Shown here: one piece after another, positions 1-15,156 of the stretch
How the letters are laid out: the number at the start of each line of letters is the position of its first letter
How positions within the stretch are numbered: the stretch's first letter is position 1
Source: Sarea resinae
Taxonomy: Eukaryota
Reading direction: 5' to 3'
Length of the DNA: 64,000 nucleotides
NCBI GenBank assembly: GCA_026026165.1
Contig: JAPEUD010000040.1
Location: 1-64,000 of the forward strand
Program-made: the position numbers and the translations under genes
Notes under the pieces: generated by a model
What the model was told of the DNA's origin: nothing
The model's database searches: none
What the model saw: only the letters and a program-made list of their open reading frames with translations

Positions 1-123
1 CCCTAACCCTAACCCTAACCCTAACCCTAACCCTAACCCTAACCCTAACCCTAACCCTAACCCTAACCCTAACCCTAACCCTAACCCTAACCCTAACCCT
101 AACCCTAACCCTAACCCTAACCC
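1..123. repeat. Telomeric repeat (CCCTAA)n, chromosome end
   Basis: 20 perfect CCCTAA units plus CCC starting at base 1; canonical TTAGGG telomere of filamentous ascomycetes. Confidence 0.99.
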
Positions 124-1955
124 TTGATGACAGAAGTGATGAAGTTGATGAGAAATAGCACTTCTCCTTATGTAGAAGAAAGTTGCTGATGATGTAGGTG
201 GTAAGTTTGAATTGCATGGCGGAACCAGGCACGCAAGATTCAGGCGGAAGGTACGTACCTTATTGAACAGTCAATAACATTCACCGCAAGGTACGTACCT
301 TATTGACCAGCCAATAACACTGACCGAGGTACGTACCTTACAGTGAATGTTTACCTTAATATCACACAGGTCTACTACTCAATTCAACCTTACCACCTAT
401 ATCATCAGCAACCTTCTCCTATAGCAGGAGGATTGCTCTCTCTTATCAACTTTGTCACTTCTGTCATTAAACTAACAAGACTTAATAAACTTTATCACTT
501 CTATCATTAGCATCATTAAGATTTCTCTCTTAGTGCTCTTTAAGTTTTTAGGTTAAGGTGAGTTTAAGAACTACTGCTTAGTAGTAACACATTTAGGTAA
601 CATTTGAGACTGCAAAGGCACGCAGCTAATTCTTCCTAAATACAGACAACTCTCTAGATTCTTTCTTTAATATCAGCTATAGATTCTCCTTCAGCACTCT
701 CTACACTACACTCTCACTCTCTTAACATAATCATAGTCACTTATACAGTAATTTATGCTTTCCTACCTCTACTAGTAACACTTAATAGTAACATTTTACT
801 AGACAATAGCTTGTACTAACTGTACTACCTGCAAGACTGTCCCTAGTACTAGTAGGAAAGGAAAAGGAAAAGGCAAGGGAATGTCTGCTGCTAAGGCTTA
901 TCGTGTTACTAGTGGCAAATCCCTACGCAAGAACTTAGCTAGTATAGCAGCACGCAAAGGTCGTCTTGCTACTAGATAACGCTTCACTACTAGCACATAT
1001 GCTTAACGCTAAAAGGCCTACAAAGATGCTATAAAATCATAGGTTTGTAAGGATACTGCATTTCGTGGTTGTAGTGAGGTTTATAGTGTGCCTAAACTAA
1101 TCCAACCCTGTCGCACTTGTCTAGGCAGTAAGTCTTAGTCTCTAAACTCTAAGGGTAACACATTATAGTAACATTTTAACACTACAGCATCTGCACTCTG
1201 TGAAATCAAGAGATTGCAAAAGTCTTTTGATTTAGTCATTCTAAAGCTCCCTTTCTAGCGCCTGGTCCGCGAGGTTACATCTTATCACTACTACCTCTCT
1301 AGAGAGCTCTGTTTCTAGTTATCAGCTATGCATGCCTTATAAGAAGCCACTGAGGCTTTTATAGTTAGGTTCTTTAAAAGTGAGTTTTTCTATCTTGTCT
1401 TCTATCCTATACTTATTATTTCTAGATGTGCTTTAGGCCTGCATTTATCAGAACTGTGTGACTATCAATCACAAAGACACTTAGTTTATTAAGGCCTTAA
1501 TAAAGGGCTTTAGTATCTAGATCTCTAGTAACATATAGGTCAAGTTTCTATAGCATTAGCTCTAAGGTTTTACTAGTCCTAGTAGTGCAATTAGGGATGC
1601 AATTAGAGATGCAGTCAGGGATGCAATTAGGGCTTTTCTAGTCTTCTAGTCTAGTTTTTCTCTGCCTTTTAGCATTTTCACTCTCTACTTTACTTAGTCT
1701 ACAATAAAGACTTAATAGACTTAGTAACACATATAGGTAACATTCCTAGAGTAATAGCGGCTTTTTAATGCTCTATAAAACATGCCCTGCAATCTATGCT
1801 ATTTTAGCCACTATTTTCATGTCATGTGACAGGTACCTAGGCCTACCTACTAGGTCCTATTAGGCAGGTTGATTAGGGCATAGGTACCTAATACCTATGC
1901 CTAGGCAGGTTCTTCTACCCCTACCCGCCTAGTAGGTACCTAAGTAGACAGCCTA
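124..1955 (-). mobile_element. Telomere-truncated inverted copy of the H3-carrying hAT transposon (left 1,832 bp only)
   Basis: Reverse complement of 5093-6924 (matched positions sum to 7048 at both ends). TIR ACCTAAGTAGACAGCCTA at 1938-1955. The differences I checked between copies are C/T or G/A transitions. Confidence 0.95.
806..1520 (+). pseudogene. Histone H3-like gene, RIP-inactivated (copy 1), 3 exons
   Basis: Exons 806-1127, 1188-1379 and 1426-~1520; introns gtaagt..ctacag (1128-1187) and gtgagt..ttctag (1380-1425). Literal translation includes ALCEIKRLQKS, KLPF*RLVRE, LCF*LSAMHAL*EATEAF and NCVTINHKDT, matching the H3 histone fold after reversing C>T/G>A changes. 3' end approximate. 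Confidence 0.9.
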
Positions 1956-4900
1956 AGTAGAAAGTAGCTCTAACTAAAGCCTAGCAACTTAGAAAGGTTA
2001 AGCAAGCTAGAGTAGTACTAACTATAGAAGATAATTTATTAAGTAGTATAGAAAGGCAACTACCTAAGGGTTAGAGAGTTAGAGGTCAAGCTATATAGTA
2101 TAAGATATAATCTTTTACTACTATTATATAGGCTTAATCTTACTCTCTAGAGACCTAACTATAACTGTATACTTTCTACTAGCTAGGCTAGCTAATTAGC
2201 AATATATACACACTAGGTAGTTAGTATACACCTCTTTAGAGTTTTACTAGCCTAGCTAGCTAAATAGCTAGCAAGTAAAGCAAGTGCAATATCTAAAGAG
2301 TCTTATCTTCTTAGACTATCTAGAAGTTTAATTATTAAATAGCTGTATTATTAAGGATTGTAACTAGTAATACAGTTAGAGTGCTTACTACTATAGCCTA
2401 CTTAGAGGTGCTACTAGAGGTTACCTAGGGCGCGCTTAATTAGTCTGTTAGTAGCGCTTCTATAGTAGGGCCTAACTCTAAGTAGGTAGAAAAAAAGTAG
2501 CTATACTACTATTAGTTACCTAGAGGTTGTATAATGCAAGTAGAGTTACTTAAAGAGAGAGAGAGAGAGAGCGCACTTGCTTAGTAGCTAGGTCGCTTGC
2601 TTAGTCAGTCGCTTAGTCGCGATACAGTTAGAGTATAAGTTAAAAGTAGCTCTAACTACTATTAAGCGACTCTAAAGAGGTTTAGCAAGCTAGAACAGTA
2701 TTAATAGTAAGAGATAATTAATTAAGTTATATAGAAAGGTAGCTTTCTAGAGGTTAGAGGTTAGGCTAGCAGTATTAGAAGGCGATTTCAATAGTTTTCT
2801 AGCTTGCTTAATCCTACTACCTTAATCCTGCTATGCTTTTTCGTTCTGCTAGCTAGGCTAGCTAATTATAAGGTAAGTAGTTAGAGTATATACTTAGTAT
2901 ATCTCTTTAATCCTAGCAGGATTACAGCCTGCAATACAGTTAGGAATATTTATTTAAGAAGTTATTTAAATACATAGCATCCTAGATTTAATAGTCTTAG
3001 ACTATAGATTGCTGTTTACCTCTTAATTCTAGACTTCTTTCTACTTTTACCTATAAGTTTAGTAAGACCTTAGTATAGCGTTCTACTTGTAAATAGATAG
3101 ACAAACTAAACAATAAAATTAAATATTAGAAGCATACCTTTAAGCGTTTATAAATAGAGCATAGGATAATTAGGCCTAATTACTCTTACTTACTAAATTT
3201 ACATATAATAATTCTAAATATTTAGCGACTAAAATAACTCTCTTTATAGCAACAAATAAGAGACACCTGCAAATAGAATTCTAAATGCAAAACCACCTAT
3301 ATAAATCAGCAATAGAGACAGCCTATACTGCTAAAATAAATAACATATATAAACACTTAAAACAAAGAATAAAAAAGGTTAACAAATAGTACACTAAATA
3401 ATACAACAAAGGTTACAAATTATACAAATACAAACTAGGTAAATATATTTAGCTAGATATATAAAACATATAGATATAACAACTAGCTATAAAATTACAA
3501 GCAAGGCAAATAGGACTATATATTATTACTAAGAAAATTAGCAAACAGGCTTATAAACTACAGTTACTTAAATAGTTCTAAATCTATAATGTCTTTAATA
3601 TATAACTGCTTAAACTATATATAAGTAGACTAAACTAGAATTATACAGATAAATAGCAGTAGAATAAAGAAGATACTGCTAACTCTAACAAACTATTTAA
3701 CATTAAAGCTATACTAAATAGCTGCATTTAAAAAAACATCTTAGAATACTAAGTAAAATAGCTTAATTACTCTAAATAAAAAAGCATATAAAAAGAGGCT
3801 AGAAGTGTAAACTACCTTAAAGAACTACTCTATAAATTTCACTATAAACACTCTATAAAAGCATTAAAATCTATAAACCTAAGACAAATAAAAAAACCTA
3901 GTTAAGCCTAACTACCTATATAAAAGAAGAAAAACAGGAACAAACTATATAAAGAAGTAACTACTAGCGTGTATACTAATAGAGAATTAACTTTACATTA
4001 TAATTAATCTAATAAACCCTAGCCTAGTGCTTAACAAATATAAGGTTAGTGTGTATATCTTACACAAACTTAATAAGATTATAAACATTGTCTTACACTA
4101 TATTAATAGCGCTCTAAACAATCTCTAACTTAACTTAGGCAGCTAACTAATCCTAAACAATCTGCTTATAAAGGCTCTTAATCTTATCTCTTAAAAGCCT
4201 AATTTTAGCAAACAGCTATAAGTTGTTATAACTTATATAGTAATTTGCACTAGTAATAGAATTAGTAACAAGCACAACTAAACTATATAGAGAAGAGGTG
4301 TAAGATAAAGAGTTAGATAATATAAGAGATAAAAAAGACAGATCCTATAAAAAGAGCAGAGGTAAACTAGTAAGACTTAACTATAGTAGTAAAGCTGTAA
4401 AAACCCTAGGAGAATTAGGTAGAGGCAACTAAGGCGAATCACTAGCAGGCAAATACAGTAGTAATAATAATAAAGAAAACAATCTAACTATAATAGCTAA
4501 TAGCCTATTAGTAAAGCGCTAACTAATAAGTAGATTGTTTAGATCTAAGTTAATATAATTTAGACTAAAAGAGTCTAGCAAAGGCACTAGCACACTACAC
4601 CTACTACTTATAACAATTAATAAAGCTATATAAAAAAAGAAAGTAAGAAAAACATATAGAGAAAATAAGAGATACTTAAATAGGCTAACTTAGAAACAAA
4701 ACAAGCAAATAAACAGATCCTAGCTATAATAACAGAAAAAAGAAAGAGAACTTATAATCTACACTACCTAAGAACAACTTAGCCTATAGCTATACACTAG
4801 GCGAATTTAAACAAAGAGAGCAATAAATATAACAAGCTAAATAGTAAAGCAATAGACTAGAAAGTAAAGAGTCTAAATCTATATTGCTATAGCAACTAGT

Positions 4901-5092
4901 ATAAACATAACTATAAATAAGCCTAAGCAACAATAAAATATCTAATAAACTAGTCACTTACTATTTAGACTTCTAACTAGTTTAGATAATTAGCTAGTTT
5001 AGTGTAATAAGGAGCGCAACTATAGGACTAGGTGTAGAAAGAGCAGTAAGAATAGCAAGTAGTATAATAATAGTAGAGGTAGTAGGTAAAGC
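1956..5092 (+). mobile_element. RIP-degraded Ty3/Gypsy (chromovirus) LTR retrotransposon relic; integrase, GPY/F and chromodomain at ~3050-3870
   Basis: After de-RIP, ~3075-3150 reads like the integrase core motif AFHPQTDGQTERQNQ.LE.YLR; ~3510-3570 reads IGPY.I...IGKQAYKLQLP; ~3695-3800 reads like a chromodomain (F.IEAILDSR..LEY.VKW). Extreme TpA enrichment. LTRs not resolved, and flanking parts may belong to other repeats. Confidence 0.75.
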
Positions 5093-5110
5093 TAGGCTGT
5101 CTACTTAGGT
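5085..5110. repeat. Left 8-bp TSD (5085-5092) and left 18-bp TIR (5093-5110)
   Basis: GGTAAAGC followed by TAGGCTGTCTACTTAGGT. Confidence 0.95.
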
Positions 5111-5527
5111 ACCTACTAGGCAGGTAGGGGTAGAAGAACCTGCCTAGGCATAGGTATTAGGTACCTATGCCCTAATCAACCTGCCTGACAGGACCTAGTA
5201 GGTAGGCCTAGGTACCTGTCACGTGACATGAAAATAGTGGCTAAAATAGCATAGATTGCAGGGCATGTTTCATAGAGCATTAAAAAGCCGCTATTACTCT
5301 AGGAATGTTACCTATATGTGTTACTAAGTCTATTAAGTCTTTATTGTAGACTAAGTAAAGTAGAGAGTGAAAATGCTAAAAGGCAGAGAAAAACTAGACT
5401 AGAAGACTAGAAAAGCCCTAATTGCATCCCTGACTGCATCTCTAATTGCATCCCTAATTGCACTACTAGGACTAGTAAAACCTTAGAGCTAATGCTATAG
5501 AAACTTGACCTATATGTTACTAGAGAT

Positions 5528-6242
5528 CTAGATACTAAAGCCCTTTATTAAGGCCTTAATAAACTAAGTGTCTTTGTGATTGATAGTCACACAGTTCTGA
5601 TAAATGCAGGCCTAAAGCACATCTAGAAATAATAAGTATAGGATAGAAGATAAGATAGAAAAACTCACTTTTAAAGAACCTAACTATAAAAGCCTTAGTG
5701 GCTTCTTGCAAGGCATGCATAGCTAATGACTAGAAACAGAGCTCTCTAAGGAGGTAGCAGTGATAAGATGTAACCTCGCGGACCAGGCGCTAGAAAGGGA
5801 GCTTTAGAATGACTAAATCAAAAGACTTTTGCAATCTCTTGATTTCACAGAGTGCAGATGCTGTGGTGTTAAAATGTTACTATAATGTGTTACCCTTAGA
5901 GTTTAGAGACTAAGACTTACTGCCTAGACAAGTGCAACAGGGTTGGATTAGTTTAGGCACACTATAAACCTTACTACAACCACGAAATGCAGTATCCTCA
6001 CGAACCTATGATTTCATAGCATCTTTATAGGCCTTTTAGCGTTAAGCATATGTGCTAGTAGTGAAGCGTTGTCTAGTAGCAAGACGACCTTTGCGTGCTG
6101 CTATGCTAGCTAAGTTCTTGCGTGGGGATTTGCCACTAGTAACACAATAAGCCTTAGCAGCAGACATTCCCTTGCCTTTTCCTTTTCCTTTCCTACTAGT
6201 ACTAGAGACAGTCTTGCAGGCGGTACAGTTAGTACAAGCTAT
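5528..6242 (-). pseudogene. Histone H3-like gene, RIP-inactivated (copy 2, inside the full element)
   Basis: Mirror of 806-1520. Retains ancestral codons lost in copy 1 (ACC GCC = T-A of TARK; TTG CAA = L-Q of ALQEA), which supports the de-RIP reading. Confidence 0.9.
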
Positions 6243-6523
6243 TGTCTAGTAAAATGTTACTATTAAGTGTTACTAGTAGAGGTAGGAAAGCATAAATTAC
6301 TGTATAAGTGACTATAATTATGTTAAGAGAGTGAGAGTGTAGTGTAGAGAGTGCTGAAGGAGAATCTGTAGCTGATATTAAAGAAAGAATCTAGAGAGTT
6401 GTCTGTATTTAGGAAGAATTAGCTGCGTGCCTTTGCAGTCTCAAATGTTACCTAAATGTGTTACTACTAAGCAGTAGTTCTTAAACTCACCTTAACCTAA
6501 AAACTCAAAGAGCACTAAGAGAG

Positions 6524-6938
6524 AAATCTTGATGATGCTAATAACAGAAGTGATAAAGTTCATTAAGTCTTGTCAGTTTAATAACAGAAGTGACAAAGTT
6601 AATAAGAGAGAGCAATCCTCCTGCTATAGGAGAAGGTTGCTAATAATGTAGGTGGTAAGGTTGAATTAAGTAGTAGACCTATGTGATATTAAGGTAAACA
6701 TTCACTGTAAGGTATATACCTTAGTCAGTGTTATTAGCTGGTCAATAAGGTACGTACCTTGCAGTGAATGTTATTGACTGTTTAATAAGGTACGTACCTT
6801 CCGCCTGAATCTTGCGTGCCTAGTTCTGCTATGCAATTCAAACTTACTACCTATATTATCAGCAACTTTCTTCTACATAAGGAGAAGTGCTATTTCTTAT
6901 CAACTTTATCACTTCTGTTATTAATATCATTAAGATTT
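6524..6938. promoter_or_regulatory. Imperfect palindrome enclosing ~40-bp tandem units with AAGGTACGTACCTT palindromes; probable bidirectional promoter between the H3-like gene and cargo gene 2
   Basis: 91-bp inverted arms at 6578-6668 and 6834-6924 (124-214 and 380-470 in copy 1). Palindromes at 248-261, 288-301 and 327-338 in copy 1. Promoter role inferred from position only. Confidence 0.55.
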
Positions 6939-6996
6939 CATTAATTTCATTAATCCTATCAACTTCCTAACTGTTTAGGCAGTAGAAAGTGATAAG

Positions 6997-8807
6997 ATAG
7001 CTGGCTAATTACTCTCTAAATCACTTACATCCTCTATAAGCTCCTCTTAGGACAAGGTAGCTATAGAGAATACTGTTATTATAAAGAAGAGGTGAGTTTT
7101 AAACCTCTAAGTGAGATAACAATGAGGTGAAACTGACTTCTTCCTAGAAACTATAGTCTAAGGGCTTAGACTTAAGGGTAACACATTTAGGTAACATTAG
7201 TACTACAAAAGGCTTATATTAGTGCAGAAAACGCTAAAAGCTTAAGAAAGCTAAATCAACTACAACTGATCTAAATCTAGGGCTAGAAAAACACAAAGAC
7301 AATAGCTAACTGCGTATAGATCTTAACAATAGTATTAACAACTCTATATATAGAAGCAACAATTAGAAAGGAAGTGATTATGAGCAGACAGCTAGTGAGG
7401 CTAGGTAACACATTTAGGTAACACTTTTTCTCTCTAAATATCTGCTGACAGTGCTACTATAGTGATAAGAGCAGTGATAAGGTAGAAATAGTGTCTGTAG
7501 CAAAGAAGACAAAGGCAAAGTTCTTACACAAGGTTAGAAACAAATATAAGAAGCAGAAGCAGTAACACATTTCAGTAACAATTCTAAACACAGAGCTAAT
7601 AAAGCAATAGGACTATATCTTAGGCACAGAAGAAAAAGAGGACTGACCTTAATGATAAGGTAGAGAGCTCAGACTCACCTGCTCTAAGAAAGAGACAGCC
7701 TAAGAGAGCATTTGACACAGAGATAGCTAGCCTAGTAGAACGTGTAAAAGCCTGCCTACAAAGACGTTATGCTAGTGAGTTAAGGCCTAGGATAGTTCCC
7801 TACAGCAAACAACAACAGATTGCTAGAGCGCAGCTTAAAGAGGCAAAGTCTAAAGCATTAGAGTTAGAGCTAGATAGCAAACTCAGCGATACTAAGTTTA
7901 AGAAGACACTGAAAAAAGCAGATAGAGCAGATAGGAAAGCAAAATCCACTCTAAGAGGCAAACTCTGTCGCGAGAATAGTTATGCTAGTATAACAGCAGC
8001 ATAACAGCAAGACTTTAAGGAGACTGTTATAGACCCTAAAATAGACAAACTAATAGAACGCCGCTTTTTCCTCTACTAGTCTGCTAAGTGGGTTACTATA
8101 CAGCAGCAAAAGGCTATTAAGGCAGAGAAAGCAAAGGCTAAGGACAACAAGCAGACAGTTAAGGATGTTGTTAATATCTTGCTACTTAAAGACAATAGAG
8201 ATAGCTAACCTAATAGTGGTGCTAATCCTAAGGTAACACTTTTAGGTAACATTTCTTTGCAGCATCTGTCTAATTAGTTTAGCAAGGACAAAATTCAGAT
8301 GAGCCTAACTTGTTATTTAGAGCATAGGGCAAACGCATTAGAAGTCGCTTGCTAAAAGTGGTTCGCCGCTATAAGAGAGACATCTACCGCTATAGCTATA
8401 ATGATCTAGTAGAAGCTAGTGATCTCTATCTAACAGAAGCGATGTTAGAGTTTGTAGAGCAGGTTAAGGACCGCGCAACACTCTCTAACAGTGACACAGA
8501 GGCTAGGACTGATTTTGCTAGGTTTAGCAATTTAGAAGCAGAAGTGTTTCTATTATCTAATAAGGATATTGACCTAATCTCAAGTGATAAGGAAGACTTT
8601 GTGCTGCTGACTATAGGAGAGAAAACTCAGCTAGAGGACATTTCTAAAGGAGAGGACTCTGCTATTGCTAGGTCTGCTATAGAGAAGGCTCTGCTAACAA
8701 CAGCTAAGAATGTTCCTATCAATGCAGAGAGGAGTAAGGATGACTCTGCTAACAATGCTAAAGAGAAGGACTTAAGTTCTAGTGCTGCTAAGGATAGCAA
8801 TAAGTAG
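6997..8807 (+). pseudogene. Cargo gene 2 of the hAT element: multi-intron, charged/acidic protein of unknown family, RIP-inactivated
   Basis: Purine-rich coding-like sequence; intron-like segments starting at 7093 (gtgagt), 7405, 7562 and 8233 (gtaaca) with branch sites and AG ends; residual open 152-aa ORF at 8349-8807; start inferred from ATA (ex-ATG) at 6997. Confidence 0.6.
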
Positions 8808-9191
8808 AGGGCAGTTATAGCCGAGTGGCTTTTCCTTATTAGTCTGTGTCTGCCTAAGGGTAGGTTTTCACTTTTTCTCTAGAATTTAGTTTACTAAAAA
8901 GGTAACACTTACTAGTAACATTGCGTACTTTAATCACGTTAGGAATGCACATTCTCTTAATTAAATTTTAGCTGTATAAACTCTCTGCTATAACTCTAGT
9001 AGACAGCTGTATTGTATTACTCTCTATGTAGTCTCCCTGCTGTGTTTCTTTAGCGATACTAAACCTAGCAACCTTTGATGTCGACATTTAAGCAAATACT
9101 TCTCTAGTTAAGGGCACTTCTAACGTCTTCACTCTGCTGTACGTTCTAAGGCCTTCTGCACTTTCTTATCACTCTAAATTTCTTCTTTACA

Positions 9192-12000
9192 ATGTCTAAT
9201 TCGTTTCAAACATCAGACTATAAGGAACTTAAGGATAGTACACAAAGATCTACAGCTATTGAGTCTAAACCTACAACTATTACTTTAACTTTGATTCACT
9301 ATGTTCTAGAGGTGTTACAAAGGGATCCTACACAGCGAATAGTTATCTAGCAGCAATTATATCATGCTACTTTTATCTTCTAGTAGGAGCAGACCGCCTA
9401 TGCAGATATAGGTCAATATAGAAGCCCTTAATAGGATTCTAGGACGCAGAAAAGCACAACCTAGTCTTTCTTCTACTAAGTTGCTGATGTTGCAACTAGC
9501 TGCCTAGAGATAATGTGTTAGCGATGCAGACGTCAGCAAGAGCATCCTAGTCTTAAGAGGACTAGCACTTCTTTAATGAAACAGCACTATAGCTCTCTAG
9601 AGTGTGCTTAGTCTCTTGCAGCAGGCACAATGCGCACACTTAAGGCTCTTTAGACTATAGTAAGATATCGCTATATGTAATAGATCTCTTAAACTAATAC
9701 CTCTATCCTTGGTGCTAGCAACGTACTTTAGCAATAAAGGCTCTCTAAACCTCAGAGCTATTCTCTTAGTTAAGCTAGCAACGCCTTCTCCTTAAGATAA
9801 TTCTATCAGCAAATCTTCTATAGCGGATTATAGAAAACCACTGGTTCTAACAATGCTTCCTTCTTTGCTAGCTAGGCCTTCGAATTCCAGGGCGACAATA
9901 GGTTTATAATAGCATTTATAATCGATATACAGAGATCTTACTAAGGATCCTACAGAGACTAGGCCTAGAAACTAAAATTTCTATCGCACTAGATGCATAG
10001 CAGAGTCTAAATAAGATCTCCTTTCTTTCTATAATAGGGTATTTCATTGACAAGGACTAGAATTACTAGGAAGTCCTCCTAGGGTTTGAAAAGATAACTA
10101 GAGAGCACTCTAGTCGCAATATAGCTACGTTACTACTTGATCGACTTTAGTGTTTCAATATTTAGGTTTGTCTTTAACCTTTATAGTAACGCTTTTAGGT
10201 AACATTACATTGTAGGATCGCATATTAGCTGTGACAACAGATAACGCAGGCAACAACAACACAATGCGTTAAGAGCTAATAAGCCTACTTGCTAATCACT
10301 ATCAGATTGTATAGGATCATAAGGTTGCTTGTGTGCCTTGCCTTGCGTATGTCATTCAGCTTGCAGTCGTTGCTTTTAATAAGTGCCTAAGAATTACTGC
10401 TTTGAACAAGTCTATACAAGATACCTAGTCAGATGCAGACTAAGAGCTTCTTTAGCAGCTTCCTTCTGAAGACTCCTTTAGCAGCACGCTGCAAAAGGTA
10501 AGTTCTAACAGCCCTTGTCTATTACTACCTCTAAAGTTTCTAGATTCGTGCACTTGCTGTCTATATCGCTGCTTTATCACAGCGAACTGCGCGCTTTTGT
10601 GATCTGCAGCTAACGCTAGTCAATATGATCTAAGATGTTAAAACTCAATAGAACTCAACATATAATATGCTGAAGCAGGCCTAGCAGCTGCGAGATGCCC
10701 TTTAGATGTTTCTTGTTAGTGAAACTAGTCCTGCAATACGTAGAGCTTGTGTCTCTCCTACTAGTTAGGACTATATTCGCTATCTGATTGTCTTACTAAA
10801 GCTATTTAATGATTAGACAAGAGCTATGTCTTAGACTAAAGGCGTAACTATCTACAAGACCTAGTTTGTATACTCTTAGATTTTTAAGCACTTAGAGAAG
10901 CATCTAACTAAGATGCGGCCTAAGCAGACACCCTAGAAACAGGAGCTTACTTCTGCTATAGAAGCAGCAAAGACAAAGCTCTCTAAGTACTACTAAGATA
11001 CTAAAGGCGTACGTAGGAGAATGTTCAATCTAGTATGCATCCTTAATCCCTTAACAAGGCTTAATCTATATAAAGTATGTTACCTAAATCTGTTACTCTT
11101 ACCTTGTCCCCTAGGAATATTTTGCTAATTGCTAAGAAGTCTAATGACTAGGGCCATGAATATTTGCGAAAGTACCGGCGCGAATTTAAGGACTATTATT
11201 AATTGCATTATGCAAGAACTAAAGTTGCCTCCTTAGATGTTGCTGCACTCTCTGTATTAGCATTAGATGTCAATTCACTTGCATAGGCTAAGACGCTTTA
11301 GAAACAATATCGCTCTGTTACAGATCTAGTCTGTTAGTATCTATCTTCGCTAGCTACAGACTACAAAGATCTCTTGCAGGTAACACTTTCAGGTAACATT
11401 TCTGTGTGCAGATGCTGACCTTCTACTAGTTCTAGCGATCACACTACTAGCCCTCGCTTAAACAAATAGCAAAAGACATTCTTGCTATACCTAGAGCTGC
11501 TGTTAGTGTTAAAAGGACTTTCAATAAGGCACAAGACCTTATTACCTTTTGTCGAAGCCGCCTTTCAGCAGAAACCGTTTAGAACACTATAGTTGTGAAG
11601 CACTTTGATCGCGATAAACTCTGCTTACATATAGGTGAAGGTGAATCTAAGAGTATTTCTAAGGACAGTGATTATTAACACACGCTATCAGCTGAATTTA
11701 ATGATTATTTACTTGTTATTAGTGATAATGATAAGCTAATCTTAGTCAATAGTGAGCCTGCGCTACAGGATGATACAGACCTGTATAGGTTTTCTAGTGA
11801 TAAGCACTCTTTACTGCTTCTACCTCTACCTACAGTGCAGCGAGATACACCTGCTCTATAGCAGCAGTCTTTGCTTTAACGCTCTAGGCACGACAATTCT
11901 CAATCTATATTGTCTTAAAGAAAGCGCCCGCGTTCAACTGTGGATGATTTATTTGTCAGGTTAAAGGCACAGAGGTACTCTTCTAGAACTAGTCTATTTC
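9192..12000 (+). pseudogene. hAT transposase (BED-type finger, DDE domain, C-terminal dimerization domain), RIP-inactivated
   Basis: De-RIP motifs: CxxC..H finger at ~9515-9605; IALDAWQS at ~9985; GYFIDKDWNYREVLLGF at ~10040; VTTDNAGNN at 10231; CLAHVIQL at ~10340; DVKTRWNSTY at 10634; AIPG..VSVERTF and RSRLSAETV at ~11485-11580. Ends approximate. Confidence 0.93.
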
Positions 12001-12439
12001 CTTCTTAATTGCGTAAATAACTACACCTGTAGTAGTTCTCTTTGTACGTGCTACAGCATATATTTATCTCTGTTAGAGTAGAGTTAGTTTTAGTAAAACA
12101 TACTAGGTTATAAAGGTTTAGAGGATGATTTAGCGGATTTAATATAGTGCAGAGTATGTAGGACTCTCTAAAGTAAACATATAGAGTATATTGTCATACT
12201 ATTATTCTTATTCTACAACTCTTATAGTCTTATCGCATCTAACCCCTAAATGTTACCTCTATGTGTTACCTTTCAATGATCTTATCTTATCAATCTATCC
12301 CTTATCTTATCAATCAACCTGCATATACCTAGTAGGTAGGCTGTAGGCCCTACAGCCAATTGAGCCTGCCTAAACCCAACCCGATTATGTAATCAGGCGG
12401 GCTAACCCGCCTAAAGCTTAATTTAGGCCGAGTACCTAA

Positions 12440-12465
12440 ACCTAAGTAGACAGCCTAGGTAAAGC
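12440..12465. repeat. Right 18-bp TIR (12440-12457) and right 8-bp TSD (12458-12465)
   Basis: ACCTAAGTAGACAGCCTA followed by GGTAAAGC. Confidence 0.95.
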
Positions 12466-14930
12466 AATAGGTAGTGTAATAATAGCAAGTGTAATAGGCT
12501 AAAAGCAATTACAAACACTTAGCAAACAATACTATAAAGCATATAATAAGAATATATACTAAGACCTTTCTAAGCCTATATTTATTAATAGACTTGCTTT
12601 AAAAGATATATAATAGGTAGTAATTAGTCTTCTATATCTAAAGGCATATAACTATATAATAATAACAAGTGTTACACCTTAGGTTTACTACCTTATAGTC
12701 ACTAGCATTTTAAATAGCCTAAGCCTATATCTTATACTTATTTAACTAATTAGTAATATAAACAAGCATAACTAATATATAAGCTAAATAAGTATAATAA
12801 CTTAAATAATAAGTTATAAAAGAGCTACTAAAGGCCTAACCTTTATAGCCTTTCCTAGATTAAGTTAGAGTAGTAGTAGGTAGTAAAGGCGCAGCAATAA
12901 CTATCTTACTCTAAGAAGCTAGTTTATACTAATAATAAACATTAGCTACTATAGTAACAGATAATATTAGTATAACAATAAGTAAAAACAATATCTAATA
13001 GGTAAAGACTATAAACACTAAATAAACTACTCTAGTTATTACTATAAACAATATAAATAACCTATAATAAGATAACTAAACAAGCTAATTATAATAGCAC
13101 TATAAGAATTATTGCATTAAATATAAAAGAGATAGTAAATAATACACTTACTAGCTAGCTAAATATAGTGCAATATATAAAGGATAAAAACAAAGAGATA
13201 ATATAATAATATAAAGCAACTAAAACAACCTTTAAATTATAGCTTAAGGTTTGTTAATAAGGTAAGAAGACTGTTTATAAGGCTCTACTAATTTATCTAC
13301 TAAGCTAACTAGATATTTACCTCTACTAACACCTAATAAAAACATAAATTATATAATTACAACTAGTTACAAAGTATAAAGAATTAGTATAAACACTAAG
13401 ACAGCTAATATAAGGTTATAAGGTATACTATAGCTAAACCTTATAAATAAGTATAAAACAATTACTGCAATAACTAATAGGTGTATAATATAAAGAAATC
13501 TATATAAGTAAAATATAAAGATATAATTAGTAAATAAGCACAATATAAATAGCTAAAATCTATAGATATATAAGCCTAATTACAAACACAGAACTATAAA
13601 AATAGAAAACACTAATAGAAGGTTATAACCTACTTAACACTGTCTCCTACGTTATAAAACAAAGGATACTAAAAAGCCTAAATAAGGGAAATAATAAGGC
13701 GACTACAAACAGCGATCAGTAAAATTCGCTCTAAACTAGAATAAAGAAGTTAAACAAAGGAAAAACTAAGAGCGATCCTAGGTAGTGTAACGCCTAGACC
13801 TACTAATTCTAAAACAAAGAAATAATAATAAAGATAAACATATAAAAAAAACAACTAAAAAGGGCGATAAACAGCAACAGGCTAAATTACTAACAGCTTA
13901 AACAAAGTATACTAAGCAATAAAAATTAGAGATAACTATAAGAGGCACACTAACTAAAGCCTACTAGTGTTAAGAATAAAGAAACACAATAAAGAAATAA
14001 TAAACAAAGAAATAACTAGTATAACTATAAACAGCAATTAGTAAAATTCGCTCTAACTTAGAACAAAGAAGTTAAATAAAAAGAAGATATAAAGACAACT
14101 ACAAGCAGTGAAAACGCTTAGAACCTCTAAAACTACAAACTAAAAGAACAATTATTACTATAAGAACACTAGAACTACCTAACCTATAATAAATATATAA
14201 GTATAAAGCACTTGCCTCTAGCTACAGTCTATAAATAGATACAAAGCTAAATAATAGAAAAACAACAACAATAAACATACAAACCTATAAATAGTACTAG
14301 CGTTATAGACAACACTATATAAAAAAGAGAGAACTATATTAAGAAGTAGGTAACTCTTTACTAAGTATACTAAGTAGTGTTTAAGGCCTACAAACCTTAG
14401 AGGTTTATTAGTTTAAGAGTTTAGTATAACTAGTCTCTTTTTATTTAACTATTTAGGAGTTTAGCACAAACAGCACTCTTTTATCTAGCTGTTTAGCCTT
14501 TAGAGCACTATATATATTCTATCTCTATAAAGTAGCTAGCAAAGTAGTTGCTAATACTATCCTATTATAAATCATTGTTTGTACTCTATTTATAAGTTTA
14601 TAGATTTGTACAAACCTTACGCATATTCTTTGCATGTATAAACTAAGTTAGCCTAGCTACTTACACCTTTAAAGCACTATATATACTCTCTTTCTATAGA
14701 GTAGTTAGTAGAGTAGTTACTAATTCTATATTATTATAAGTTATTTTTTGCCTTTTGTTAAGAAACTAAGTTAGTCTAGCTACTTATTTAAAGGTAAAAG
14801 AAAGCTAGTCTCTTTATTACTACCTATAAAGATTAATTAATATAACTTAGCATAGAAAGAGAAAGAGAGGATAATAGAATAAGGCTCTAACTAAGTCTCT
14901 AACCAAGTCTCTAACTAAGTACACACTCTT
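12466..14930. mobile_element. Heavily RIP-degraded repeat DNA, continuation of the sequence interrupted by the hAT insertion
   Basis: Very AT/TpA-rich; contiguous with 5092 through the TSD; internal diverged direct repeats (~13700-13830 vs ~14020-14140; ~14480-14570 vs ~14645-14740); abrupt switch to normal GC at ~14930. Confidence 0.65.
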
Positions 14931-15156
14931 TATCTACTCGCCGTTCGACCCATTCGATCTCAGTCGATTGTCTTTGATGACCACTGACTACCGCACGTCA
15001 GCTCGACCAGATCATCATCATCACGCCTAATTACGCAACGGCTTTCGCGGCACAGCCTTTGTTTGTACGTCAGAGCTAATGTACTCTGGCTCATCTCGAT
15101 TGGTTAATCTCGAAAAAAAAAACACTCCGATTTCTCCGAAGTCCCTCATCGCAGCT

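What the first reader, a model, noticed from the sequence alone, without database searches (positions are those of the whole stretch)
5093..12457. A three-gene hAT transposon carrying its own histone H3-like gene: candidate chromatin-manipulating mobile element
Seen: exact TIRs and an 8-bp TSD enclose a hAT transposase, a divergently transcribed spliced H3-like gene (5528-6242) and a second cargo gene. The H3-like gene is missing from the ORF track because RIP filled it with stops. Established: hAT elements normally need only a transposase. From memory, hAT-borne H3-like genes were reported in Pyrenophora tritici-repentis, so H3 capture itself is not unprecedented and this should be verified. 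Inference: the cargo H3 has a remodelled tail and introns carrying the element's signature motif, which suggests long residence and a function for the element rather than recent passive capture. Possible roles are anti-silencing, a decoy for histone modifiers, or target-site tethering.
Basis: partly seen in the sequence, partly recalled or inferred. Interest (0 to 1): 0.88.

Follow-up and report, generated by a model that had tools for sequence, protein, structure and literature searches.

The report
Dead histone-carrying hAT transposon copy
This is a mutation-riddled copy of a jumping gene that carries its own histone H3-like gene, a kind already described in two groups of plant-pathogenic fungi and here found in an unrelated fungal lineage.

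Summary
Window 5093-12457 is a complete hAT DNA transposon with 18-bp exact terminal inverted repeats and an 8-bp target duplication. It carries three genes: a divergently transcribed, two-intron H3-like gene at exactly 5528-6242, an orphan central ORF, and a hAT transposase. All three are riddled with RIP-type stop codons. A second copy, cut short and capped by the telomere, lies at 125-1955. One DNA run of the organism lays 2063 contig pieces on the element, so it is a multi-copy family.

The kind is already in print. Pyrenophora tritici-repentis has the same three-gene layout (Manning 2013), and Mycosphaerellaceae have RIPped H3-carrying hATs (Dhillon 2019).

- **New here, host:** its AsnRS is closest to Xylonomycetes, Lecanoromycetes and Eurotiomycetes, not Dothideomycetes.
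- **New here, family:** the end sequence and motif words are absent from the published consensus elements.
- **New here, H3-like gene:** it keeps introns.
- **New here, motif:** a 21-nt motif (GTAACA-N7-GTAACA) occurs 13 times, always outside exons.

In-frame tail and loop insertions suggest the H3-like gene was once a maintained coding gene. Nothing here shows what it did, and the copies examined here carry RIP damage (both window copies fully read; the other copies show RIP-type changes). I rate it a new member of a known kind, of moderate interest.

The parts
5085..5092 (.). left target-site duplication GGTAAAGC
5093..5110 (+). left terminal inverted repeat TAGGCTGTCTACTTAGGT
   Evidence: homology to copy B starts here
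5528..6242 (-). H3-like gene (H3L). Exons 6242-5921, 5860-5669 and 5622-5528. Intron 1 is 5920-5861 (60 nt, GTAAGT..CAG, holds the motif). Intron 2 is 5668-5623 (46 nt, GTGAGT..TAG, no motif). There are 202 codons, 7 internal stops, and the start codon reads ATA.
6523..6939 (.). 417-bp palindrome between H3L and the central ORF. It is a possible shared promoter region or a nested foldback.
   Evidence: I1, I2; DNA fold -97.9 kcal/mol, z -13.3
7624..8807 (+). central orphan ORF. Model: exon 7624-8232, intron 8233-8282 (50 nt, begins with the motif), exon 8283-8807. About 378 codons with 4 internal stops. The start codon was not identified.
   Evidence: no relatives
9192..12008 (+). hAT transposase gene. 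Exons about 9192-9659, 9719-10165, 10216-10497, 10544-11074, 11115-11379 (one frameshift near 11130) and 11430-12008. About 857 codons and about 50 internal stops. The third catalytic acid (E) reads K.
5306..5324 (-). motif GTAACA-N7-GTAACA, downstream of the H3L stop
5875..5893 (-). motif, 3' part of H3L intron 1
6255..6273 (-). motif, just upstream of the H3L start
6446..6464 (-). motif, upstream of H3L
7178..7196 (+). motif, upstream of the central ORF
7405..7423 (+). motif, upstream of the central ORF
7562..7580 (+). motif, upstream of the central ORF
8233..8251 (+). motif, 5' end of the 50-nt intron of the central ORF
8902..8920 (+). motif, between the central ORF and the transposase
10186..10204 (+). 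motif (one mismatch), 3' part of transposase intron 10166-10215
11078..11096 (-). motif in reverse orientation inside transposase intron 11075-11114
11380..11398 (+). motif, 5' end of transposase intron 11380-11429
12251..12269 (-). motif in reverse orientation, downstream of the transposase
12440..12457 (-). right terminal inverted repeat
12458..12465 (.). right target-site duplication GGTAAAGC
125..1955 (-). copy B of the same element. It holds the left TIR (1938-1955), H3L and part of the palindrome. It is cut at the equivalent of about 6925 and capped by telomere repeats. It is 96.7% identical to copy A.

Best explanation
Window 5093-12457 is a complete but dead copy of a multi-copy hAT cut-and-paste DNA transposon. 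Besides its transposase, the family carries a histone H3-derived gene (H3L) and an orphan ORF.

**Shown.**
- The ends, the 8-bp target duplication and the hAT transposase are present.
- The H3L gene is intact in structure, with two introns.
- All three genes carry heavy RIP damage.
- The same genome holds further copies.

**Inferred.**
- The family moved by ordinary hAT transposition. This copy landed in an already RIP-degraded retrotransposon relic near a chromosome end.
- The H3L gene came from a genomic (intron-bearing) H3 gene, not from a retrocopy.
- Before RIP it evolved as a maintained coding gene. All its length changes against H3 are in frame, its splice sites are intact, and every stop is of RIP type.

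What H3L did for the element is not shown. My preferred guess, at about 1 in 3, is an element-encoded H3 variant that enters nucleosomes or soaks up H3-tail modifiers. The alternative is a tolerated passenger.

This is the same kind of element as the published H3L-hAT of Pyrenophora tritici-repentis, found in a different fungal lineage.
For: **Transposon identity.**
- TIR and TSD are exact.
- The copy A/B homology boundary falls exactly at the TIR.
- The hAT dimerisation domain is present.
- P0004 aligns colinearly at E 2.4e-32. The residues D (ISIALDA) and D (TTDNA) are present, and E reads K in SVKRTFN.

**H3L.**
- Pfam Histone matches at E 1.1e-9, and PDB H3 chains match.
- The 609-nt spliced CDS is in frame and colinear with H3 across both introns.
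- The N-terminus reads M(ATA) A C T N C T A C K T, against H3's M A R T K Q T A R K S (query line).

**RIP.** The indices and 60 of 60 transitions between the copies point to RIP. The context preference is CCA/TCA.

**Family size.** 2063 contig pieces of run X1 lie on the element at 80% identity or more. Summed depth is 8,000-15,000 against about 400 for single contigs. Changes are mostly C>T (213) and G>A (189).

**Flanks.** The left flank holds a Tf2-1-like integrase SH3 domain. The flanks have lower GC and a stronger RIP index than the element.

**Precedent.** Manning 2013 and Dhillon 2019.
Against: - No intact copy and no transcript was seen, so the gene models rest on frame continuity and on one distant transposase homologue (27% identity).
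- The central ORF has no relatives at all, so it may not be a real gene.
- The TIR starts TAGGC, which fits the recalled hAT consensus YARNG at 4 of 5 positions.
- Homology of this family to the Pyrenophora element could not be tested, because no Pyrenophora sequence was reachable.
- The argument that in-frame indels imply past selection rests on only about 3 indels.
- The summed-depth copy estimate is rough, and the tool itself warns it is not a copy number.
Confidence: 0.85

Rival explanations
1. Functional cargo. In live copies H3L is an element-serving chromatin protein. It would work as an anti-silencing histone, a decoy for H3K9/K27 modifiers, or a tether for target choice. That would explain why hATs carry it repeatedly.
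For: - All length differences from H3 are in frame: the tail insertions and 3 extra residues in loop 1. Splice sites are intact and all 7 stops are RIP-type.
- The tail keeps the K9 and K27 contexts but has N at K4, by a transversion that RIP cannot make.
- The same three-gene layout occurs in Pyrenophora, where the text reports ESTs and far more silent than missense differences among 26 copies.
- H3-carrying hATs are now known in three fungal lineages.
Against: - No functional data exist anywhere. Manning 2013 calls an effect possible but undetermined.
- Both window copies are dead.
- In P. fijiensis the H3 part is described as an intron-less, mostly truncated retrocopy, which fits passive capture.
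- The central ORF, which should be co-selected, has no detectable relatives.
Confidence: 0.3
2. Passive passenger. A host H3 gene was picked up once between the hAT ends (transduplication) and has merely been copied along with the element. Its divergence would be drift plus RIP.
For: - This is the published interpretation for both known cases.
- Elements in Pyrenophora also exist in a short form that recombined its ORFs.
- RIP explains many substitutions, such as R to C and Q or W to stop.
Against: RIP makes only transitions, so it cannot explain the in-frame insertions or K4N. Drift long enough to add about 60 tail residues should also have produced frameshifts, and none is seen in 609 nt in two copies.
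Confidence: 0.45
3. The repeated GTAACA-N7-GTAACA motif is a cis-acting protein-binding site. It could bind, for example, the transposase's DNA-binding domain or the central ORF product. On this reading it can only survive in non-coding parts of a compact element, and it is not a splicing signal.
For: - 13 copies in copy A and 4 in copy B, none convincing in the other 49 kb. The search gave 24 hits at 2 mismatches or fewer against 3.4 expected, and 17 of them are true copies.
- Only a 21-24-nt core is conserved.
- Its place inside introns varies between the 5' end and the 3' end.
- Two copies are antisense to the transposase gene.
Against: - 11 of 13 copies are in the sense orientation of the nearest gene (binomial 0.011).
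- The core starts with GT, is often preceded by AG, and holds a TAAC branch-like site. That fits a reusable splice-signal cassette.
- hAT transposase sites are, from recall, usually subterminal, and these are spread over 7 kb.
- The apparent protection from RIP vanished once RIP context was checked.
Confidence: 0.35
4. This is not one element. Two unrelated hAT ends would happen to bracket a host H3 pseudogene and other debris.
For: The region is repeat-rich and subtelomeric, and nested insertions are common in such DNA.
Against: - The 8-bp TSD is exact and the 18-bp TIRs are identical.
- Copy B carries the same TIR-to-H3L-to-palindrome sequence in a different flank.
- Contig depth is even across H3L, the central ORF and the transposase.
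- The signature motif runs through all three genes.
Confidence: 0.03

Closest known systems
H3L-carrying hAT 'transduplication' element of Pyrenophora tritici-repentis (Manning et al. 2013, G3, PMC3538342; passages and section 20 part 1 read)
   Same: - A hAT element with TIRs.
- Three genes in the same set: histone H3-like, central ORF of unknown function, and transposase with a hAT dimerisation domain.
- H3L has insertions in the N-terminal tail and fits neither H3 nor CenH3.
- It is multi-copy.
   Different: - The Pyrenophora element is about 5.6 kb, nearly identical between copies, not RIPped and has ESTs. This one is 7.4 kb and RIP-killed.
- The host is not a Dothideomycete.
- Sequence homology between the two families could not be tested. 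The central ORF C-terminus found no relative in 1.84 billion representatives.
RIP-inactivated H3-carrying hAT family of Pseudocercospora fijiensis, Cercospora zeae-maydis and Sphaerulina (Dhillon et al. 2019, Mobile DNA, PMC6710886; abstract, Results, Discussion part 1, and supplement 2 part 1 of 5 read)
   Same: - A hAT with an 8-bp TSD and 18-20-bp TIRs.
- An H3-like sequence inside the element.
- All copies are RIPped and sit in AT-rich blocks.
- Tens to hundreds of copies.
   Different: - Those H3 parts are reported as intron-less retrocopies, often truncated, with one or two per 9.5-kb element. Here there is one full-length H3L with two introns in a 7.4-kb element.
- Five words from our TIR and motif, 9 to 12 nt long, occur nowhere in their consensus file.
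- The C. zeae-maydis consensus starts with a different end sequence.
Ordinary fungal hAT transposons (e.g. the Penicillium angulare protein P0004 family)
   Same: Transposase colinear over the catalytic core and C-terminal dimerisation region. 8-bp TSD.
   Different: Ordinary hATs carry only the transposase. Identity to the best hit is only 27%. Whether P0004 elements carry a histone gene is unknown, because no genomic context was available.
Canonical histone H3 and centromeric CenH3 (Cse4/CENP-A)
   Same: - H3-type N-terminus (ARTK..TARKS-like, GKxPRKxLAxxAARK).
- A histone fold with KLPF-Q-RLVRE and ALQEA.
- About 55-60% identity to H3.3 over alpha-N to alpha-2, counted by eye from the alignment.
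   Different: - About 66 extra residues: 202 codons against 136 quoted for H3. Most are in the tail.
- K4 is replaced by N.
- Loop 1 is 3 residues longer and reads REVT as in Cse4. The best PDB hit is an H3-tail/Cse4-fold chain, 7k78_A, though only about tenfold better than H3.3.
- The positions of Q68 and F84 are H3-like, not CenH3-like.

Membership tests
hAT superfamily DNA transposon | 8-bp target-site duplication | tested here: met
   GGTAAAGC on both sides, 8 of 8 identical
hAT superfamily DNA transposon | short terminal inverted repeats (consensus start YARNG, recalled) | tested here: met
   18 of 18 exact TIR. The start TAGGC fits 4 of 5 recalled consensus positions, and the first T could be a RIP-hit C.
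hAT superfamily DNA transposon | transposase with an RNase-H-like DDE core and a C-terminal hAT dimerisation domain | tested here: met
   PF05699 at E 1.8e-4, 21.7 bits against a cut-off of 21.4. tblastn of P0004 gives E 2.4e-32 over three exons. D and D are present, and the E position reads K in this copy.
hAT superfamily DNA transposon | N-terminal BED-type zinc finger | tested here: inconclusive
   Only a weak tblastn match (E 0.10) at 9510-9605 to the Cys/His region of P0004. No Pfam hit.
Pyrenophora-type H3L-hAT (Manning 2013) | H3-like gene + central ORF + hAT transposase between one pair of TIRs | tested here: met
   compared with the text
Pyrenophora-type H3L-hAT (Manning 2013) | H3L with N-tail insertions that is neither H3 nor CenH3 | tested here: met
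Pyrenophora-type H3L-hAT (Manning 2013) | sequence homology of the transposase, central ORF and H3L to the Pyrenophora proteins | not testable with these tools
   No Pyrenophora sequence could be fetched. Word-indexed searches fail on RIP-mutated queries (29 candidates, none scored). The central ORF C-terminus matched only itself.
Mycosphaerellaceae H3-hAT (Dhillon 2019) | intron-less H3 retrocopy inside the element | tested here: not met
   H3L here has two introns of 60 and 46 nt, each needed for colinearity with H3
Mycosphaerellaceae H3-hAT (Dhillon 2019) | sequence likeness to the published consensus elements | tested here: not met
   0 occurrences of five 9-12-nt words from our TIR and motif in the supplementary files. 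This is a word search only, with no alignment, and line breaks every 72 letters could hide some matches. The Czm consensus starts differently.
Centromeric histone CenH3 | divergent non-H3 N-tail and longer loop 1 | tested here: not met
   Loop 1 is longer by 3 residues, but the tail is H3-type and the alpha-1 and alpha-2 signature residues are H3-like.
RIP-mutated repeat | C-to-T and G-to-A transitions at CpA/TpG, with TpA/ApT high and (CpA+TpG)/(ApC+GpT) low | tested here: met
   1.68 and 0.93 in the element against 0.65 and 1.22 in genic DNA. 60 of 60 differences between the copies are transitions. CCA is almost gone, at 4% against 64%.

The most novel reading that the evidence does not exclude
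H3-carrying hATs would be not three accidents but one old, possibly horizontally moving, three-gene transposon lineage spread across classes of Pezizomycotina. Its histone variant has lost K4, kept the K9 and K27 contexts, gained a tail about 60 residues longer and a longer loop 1. It would have been selected because it acts on chromatin for the element. The 13-fold intron-borne GTAACA-N7-GTAACA motif would be part of the element's own control of splicing or of transposase binding.
Probability: 0.2. Interest if true: 0.75.

Novelty: new member of a known kind. Interest (0 to 1): 0.4.

Why it matters
Histone H3 is among the most conserved proteins. A transposon that carries its own variant invites the idea of mobile DNA tampering with the chromatin that silences it.

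That idea has stood untested since 2013. The two published cases were treated as independent accidents within one fungal class.

A third case, in a host outside that class and with the same three-gene layout as Pyrenophora, makes chance capture less comfortable. It also gives a concrete comparison set for testing shared descent, selection and horizontal transfer.

The copy itself is a dead relic and does nothing today. The intron-borne motif and the strongly context-dependent RIP (CCA and TCA hit, ACA and GCA spared) are small new observations.

Tried and rejected

- No whole genome is held for this window. Genome-wide copy collection, a de-RIP consensus and dN/dS were therefore impossible.
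- The search for homologous proteins with H3L gave 29 candidates, none scored. With the transposase it gave only 3 weak hits. The word index does not cope with RIP-mutated queries.
- The central ORF found nothing usable:
  - phmmer over 1.84 billion representatives found only the genome's own 121-aa prediction.
  - The ESM Atlas gave no usable hit for either half.
  - The AlphaFold2 single-sequence model had pLDDT 40.5 and was not searched further.
  - PDB sequence searches gave only chance-level hits, E 0.05 and 0.41, or none.
  - Pfam found nothing in any frame.
- A metagenome scan for the 21-nt motif returned one hit, a bacterial-looking contig where the words fall inside a coding region. 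I take it as a chance match.
- No RNA holder was listed. Runs X2 and X3 laid nothing.
- Rfam found no family in 1-15000.
- Earlier-findings look-ups gave nothing.
- One search used the wrong reading frame, my slip, and was repeated.

**Ideas rejected**
- *The motif is protected from RIP.* All its CpA sites are intact in 26 of 26 hexamers and no degraded copy exists. But RIP here barely touches ACA and does not deplete TAACA, so no protection is needed.
- *A and B share over 100 RIP hits, so dead copies kept transposing.* A naive independence test expected about 3 shared hits. But CCA sites are about 94% saturated, which produces shared hits without shared descent. This is left open, not claimed.
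- *The motif is a whole mini-intron of 30-32 nt.* The 50-nt models restore frame and give better colinearity.

**Limits of the literature check.** I found no report of an H3-carrying hAT outside Dothideomycetes in search listings 10, 48 and 71. Those are listings only, and subscription journals are not covered. Parts 2-5 of Dhillon's supplementary file 2 were searched by words but not read.

Full report

Yes. TAGGCTGTCTACTTAGGT lies at 5093-5110 and its exact reverse complement at 12440-12457. Both are flanked by the 8-bp direct repeat GGTAAAGC, at 5085-5092 and 12458-12465.

With the local base composition, about 0.002 exact 18-nt inverted pairs are expected in this 8.5-kb stretch. About 5e-8 are expected with a matching 8-bp flank. 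In 200 shuffles the mean was 0.02 and the maximum 1.

Independent proof of the boundary comes from a second copy in the same window. Copy B (125-1955, opposite orientation) is 96.7% identical to copy A over 1833 nt. The likeness begins exactly at the first base of the TIR, and the flanks are unrelated.

**2. Surroundings**

- The window begins with 20 CCCTAA telomere repeats at 1-120.
- Bases 1-15000 are an AT-rich block of 25-40% GC. The remaining 49 kb is ordinary genic DNA of about 52% GC. It holds, among others, an asparaginyl-tRNA synthetase, a DNA ligase domain and a multicopper oxidase.
- Copy B is cut off at the equivalent of about 6925 of copy A and joined directly to the telomere repeats.
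- The DNA between the two copies holds a Tf2-1-like integrase SH3 domain, at about 3474-3620, E 2e-8. This is a retrotransposon relic.
- Both flanks of copy A are more degraded than the element itself, with GC 27-29% and (CpA+TpG)/(ApC+GpT) of 0.47-0.49 against 0.93.

**3. RIP**

- In the element TpA/ApT is 1.68 and (CpA+TpG)/(ApC+GpT) is 0.93. In the genic part they are 0.65 and 1.22.
- All 60 differences between A and B inside the element are transitions. 44 of them lie in CpA/TpG context in the unmutated copy.
- RIP here depends strongly on context:
  - CCA is almost gone, at 4% of CCA+CTA against 64% in genic DNA.
  - TCA is reduced, at 26% against 69%.
  - GCA is untouched, and ACA is only mildly lowered.
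  - TAACA is not lowered at all.

**4. The three genes**

*(a) H3L, minus strand, 6242-5528.*
- The exons are 6242-5921, 5860-5669 and 5622-5528. The introns are 60 nt (GTAAGT..CAG) and 46 nt (GTGAGT..TAG).
- The spliced CDS is 609 nt and in frame. It has 7 internal stops in A and 9 in B, 7 of them shared. All are TAA or TAG.
- The start codon reads ATA, the expected RIP product of ATG followed by G.
- Removing the two introns gives perfect colinearity with H3: LGT|SALCEIKRLQKS against PGT|VALREIRRYQKS, and FFKNVLQACIYQNCVTI against LFEDTNLCAIHAKRVTI. I made this comparison using the H3 sequences shown and recalled H3 numbering.
- Pfam Histone matches at E 1.1e-9. PDB H3 chains match at about 1e-10. 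The best hit is an H3-tail/Cse4-fold chain (7k78_A, 2.5e-11), because loop 1 is 3 residues longer and reads REVT.
- The tail starts like H3: A-C-T-N-C-T-A-C-K-T against ARTKQTARKS. The C residues are explained by CGT to TGT. Further on it holds GKSPRKNLASIAARK.
- It has insertions that make the protein 202 residues, against the 136 quoted for H3.
- K4 is N, through a transversion that RIP cannot make.

*(b) Central ORF, plus strand.*
- The long open stretches are 7624-8001, 8080-8205 and 8328-8804.
- A 50-nt intron at 8233-8282 joins them into about 378 codons with 4 internal stops.
- It has no Pfam hit. It has no relative among 1.84 billion representatives except the genome's own 121-aa prediction, P0007. 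The Atlas gave no hit, and PDB sequence searches gave nothing significant.
- Its C-terminal half gives only a low-confidence fold, pLDDT 40.5, of helices plus disorder.

*(c) Transposase, plus strand, about 9192-12008.*
- The best database hit is a Penicillium angulare protein of 875 aa (P0004, E 2.8e-25, 27% identity).
- Laid on the DNA by tblastn, it defines colinear exons at a summed E of 2.4e-32.
- My model has six exons, about 857 codons, about 50 internal stops and one frameshift near 11130.
- The hAT dimerisation domain is found, at E 1.8e-4 and 21.7 bits against a cut-off of 21.4.
- The first two catalytic acids are present (ISIALDA, TTDNA). The third reads K (SVKRTFN against GVERLFN), a TpG to TpA change.

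**5. A family, not a single insertion**

One DNA run holds 65% of the element's sampled words. Its contigs lay 2063 pieces on the element at 80% identity or more. Of these, 572 are at 99% or more, 567 at 95-99%, 689 at 90-95% and 235 below 90%.

Summed depth is 8,000-15,000 over most bins, against about 400 for single contigs. The H3L bins (8,000-11,700) match the transposase bins. The tool warns that this is not a copy number, and I read it only as "tens of copies".

Differences from copy A are mostly C>T (213) and G>A (189), against T>C (54) and A>G (56). So copy A is among the less mutated copies, and no sign of an intact copy was seen. A dip at 7061-7798 marks a variable stretch upstream of the central ORF.

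**6. The signature motif**

GTAACA-N7-GTAACA occurs 13 times in copy A and 4 times in copy B. Of these 17, 16 are exact and one has a single mismatch. There is no convincing copy in the rest of the window. In all there were 24 hits at 2 mismatches or fewer against 3.4 expected, and the other 7 are offsets or chance.

Only a 21-24-nt core, (A)G|GTAACAC-TTTAG-GTAACATTT, is shared. All 13 copies lie outside my exon models. This is partly circular for two of them, which I used to define introns. Eleven of 13 are in the sense orientation of the nearest gene (binomial 0.011).

Where frames can be checked, the motif takes two positions:
- **At the 3' end of an intron:** H3L intron 1, and transposase intron 10166-10215. 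The latter is supported by 20-for-20 residue colinearity with P0004.
- **At the 5' end of an intron:** here the first GTAACA would serve as donor. These are central ORF 8233-8282 and transposase 11380-11429, both 50 nt. The latter restores the D..L..FW..P..L..IAKDIL spacing seen in P0004.

Two validated introns lack the motif: H3L intron 2 and transposase intron 10498-10543.

I cannot decide between two readings: a reusable splice-signal cassette, or a protein-binding site that can only sit in non-coding DNA.

My first impression that the motif is shielded from RIP did not survive. All its CpA sites are in the ACA context, which RIP spares here.

**7. Host and literature**

The window's asparaginyl-tRNA synthetase is at most 79% identical to any other protein. 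The nearest named hits are:
- Xylona heveae, at 79%;
- lichen-forming Lecanoromycetes (Pleopsidium, Acarospora, Toensbergia and others), at 73-78%;
- Eurotiomycetes such as Coccidioides, at 75%.

No Dothideomycete is among the named rows of the 120 listed. I infer a Pezizomycotina host outside the Dothideomycetes with no close sequenced relative.

The kind of element is in print.
- **Manning et al. [quoted passage not shown] It has 10 long and 16 short copies that are nearly identical, with ESTs. H3L has tail insertions and is neither H3 nor CenH3.
- **Dhillon et al. 2019** describe RIP-killed hATs of about 9.5 kb with one or two intron-less H3 retrocopies in Pseudocercospora fijiensis and five relatives. 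They have 8-bp TSDs and 18-20-bp TIRs, and were judged independent of the Pyrenophora event.

Five 9-12-nt words from our TIR and motif occur nowhere in their supplementary files. Their Cercospora consensus begins with a different end sequence.

A broad survey of chromatin genes captured by transposons mentions hAT fusions with chromodomain readers. The passages I saw mention no histones.

My three searches listed no report of an H3-carrying hAT outside Dothideomycetes.

**8. What it most likely is and how it works**

*Shown.* It is a complete, RIP-inactivated hAT element of a multi-copy family. Its standard structure includes an intron-bearing H3-derived gene and an orphan ORF.

*Inferred.*
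- The family moved by ordinary hAT cut-and-paste with an 8-bp target duplication.
- This copy inserted into an already degraded retrotransposon relic about 5 kb from a telomere.
- H3L came from a genomic H3 gene, not a retrocopy.
- H3L was a maintained coding gene before RIP. At least three length changes against H3 are all in frame, the splice sites are canonical, there are no frameshifts in 609 nt in two copies, and every stop is of RIP type.

I put it at about 0.3. Nothing here says what the function would be. The passive-passenger reading of both published papers remains at least as likely, at about 0.45.

**9. Verdict**

The finding is a new member of a known kind: a third host lineage, a distinct family, an H3L gene that keeps introns, and a new repeated motif.

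I score interest at 0.4. The most novel reading still open is an old, class-spanning, functional H3L-hAT lineage with its own intron-borne control motif. I give it a probability of 0.2 and an interest of 0.75 if true.

Noticed in passing
window 1-124 and 125-1955: The window starts with 20 CCCTAA telomere repeats joined directly to a truncated second copy of the element. The break lies inside the element's 417-bp palindrome, at the equivalent of about 6925. It looks like a chromosome break at a palindrome healed by telomere addition.
   Followed up: partly
window 6523-6939: A long palindrome lies between the divergent H3L and central genes, with arms of 41 and 104 nt at 81-90% complementarity. 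It folds at -97.9 kcal/mol, z -13.3. One contig of run X1 shows a strand-switch joint there (6668/6822), and summed depth is highest in these bins.
   Followed up: partly
whole element against window 15001-64000: RIP in this genome is strongly context-dependent. CCA is nearly eliminated (24 CCA against 591 CTA) and TCA is reduced, while GCA is untouched and ACA only mildly lowered.
   Followed up: yes
window 1956-5084 (domain at about 3474-3620): A heavily RIPped relic of a Ty3/Gypsy-type retrotransposon (Tf2-1-like integrase SH3 domain, E 2e-8) forms the DNA into which copy A inserted.
   Followed up: partly
window 5418-5462: Four tandem 12-nt units (CTAATTGCATCC-like) lie just downstream of the H3L stop codon.
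   Followed up: no
window 9691; 7061-7798; 8657: Compared with other copies in run X1, copy A has one extra base at 9691 (5 contigs lack it). It has a poorly shared stretch at 7061-7798, and one other copy carries a 27-nt insertion after 8657.
   Followed up: no
window 8442-8804 (protein P0007): The public annotation of this genome predicts a 121-aa protein from the C-terminal part of the RIP-damaged central ORF. This is probably an annotation artefact on a dead transposon.
   Followed up: partly
L001:804-824: The only metagenome match to the 21-nt motif lies inside what looks like a bacterial secreted-protein gene, where it encodes VTLLGNI. I take it as a chance match.
   Followed up: yes
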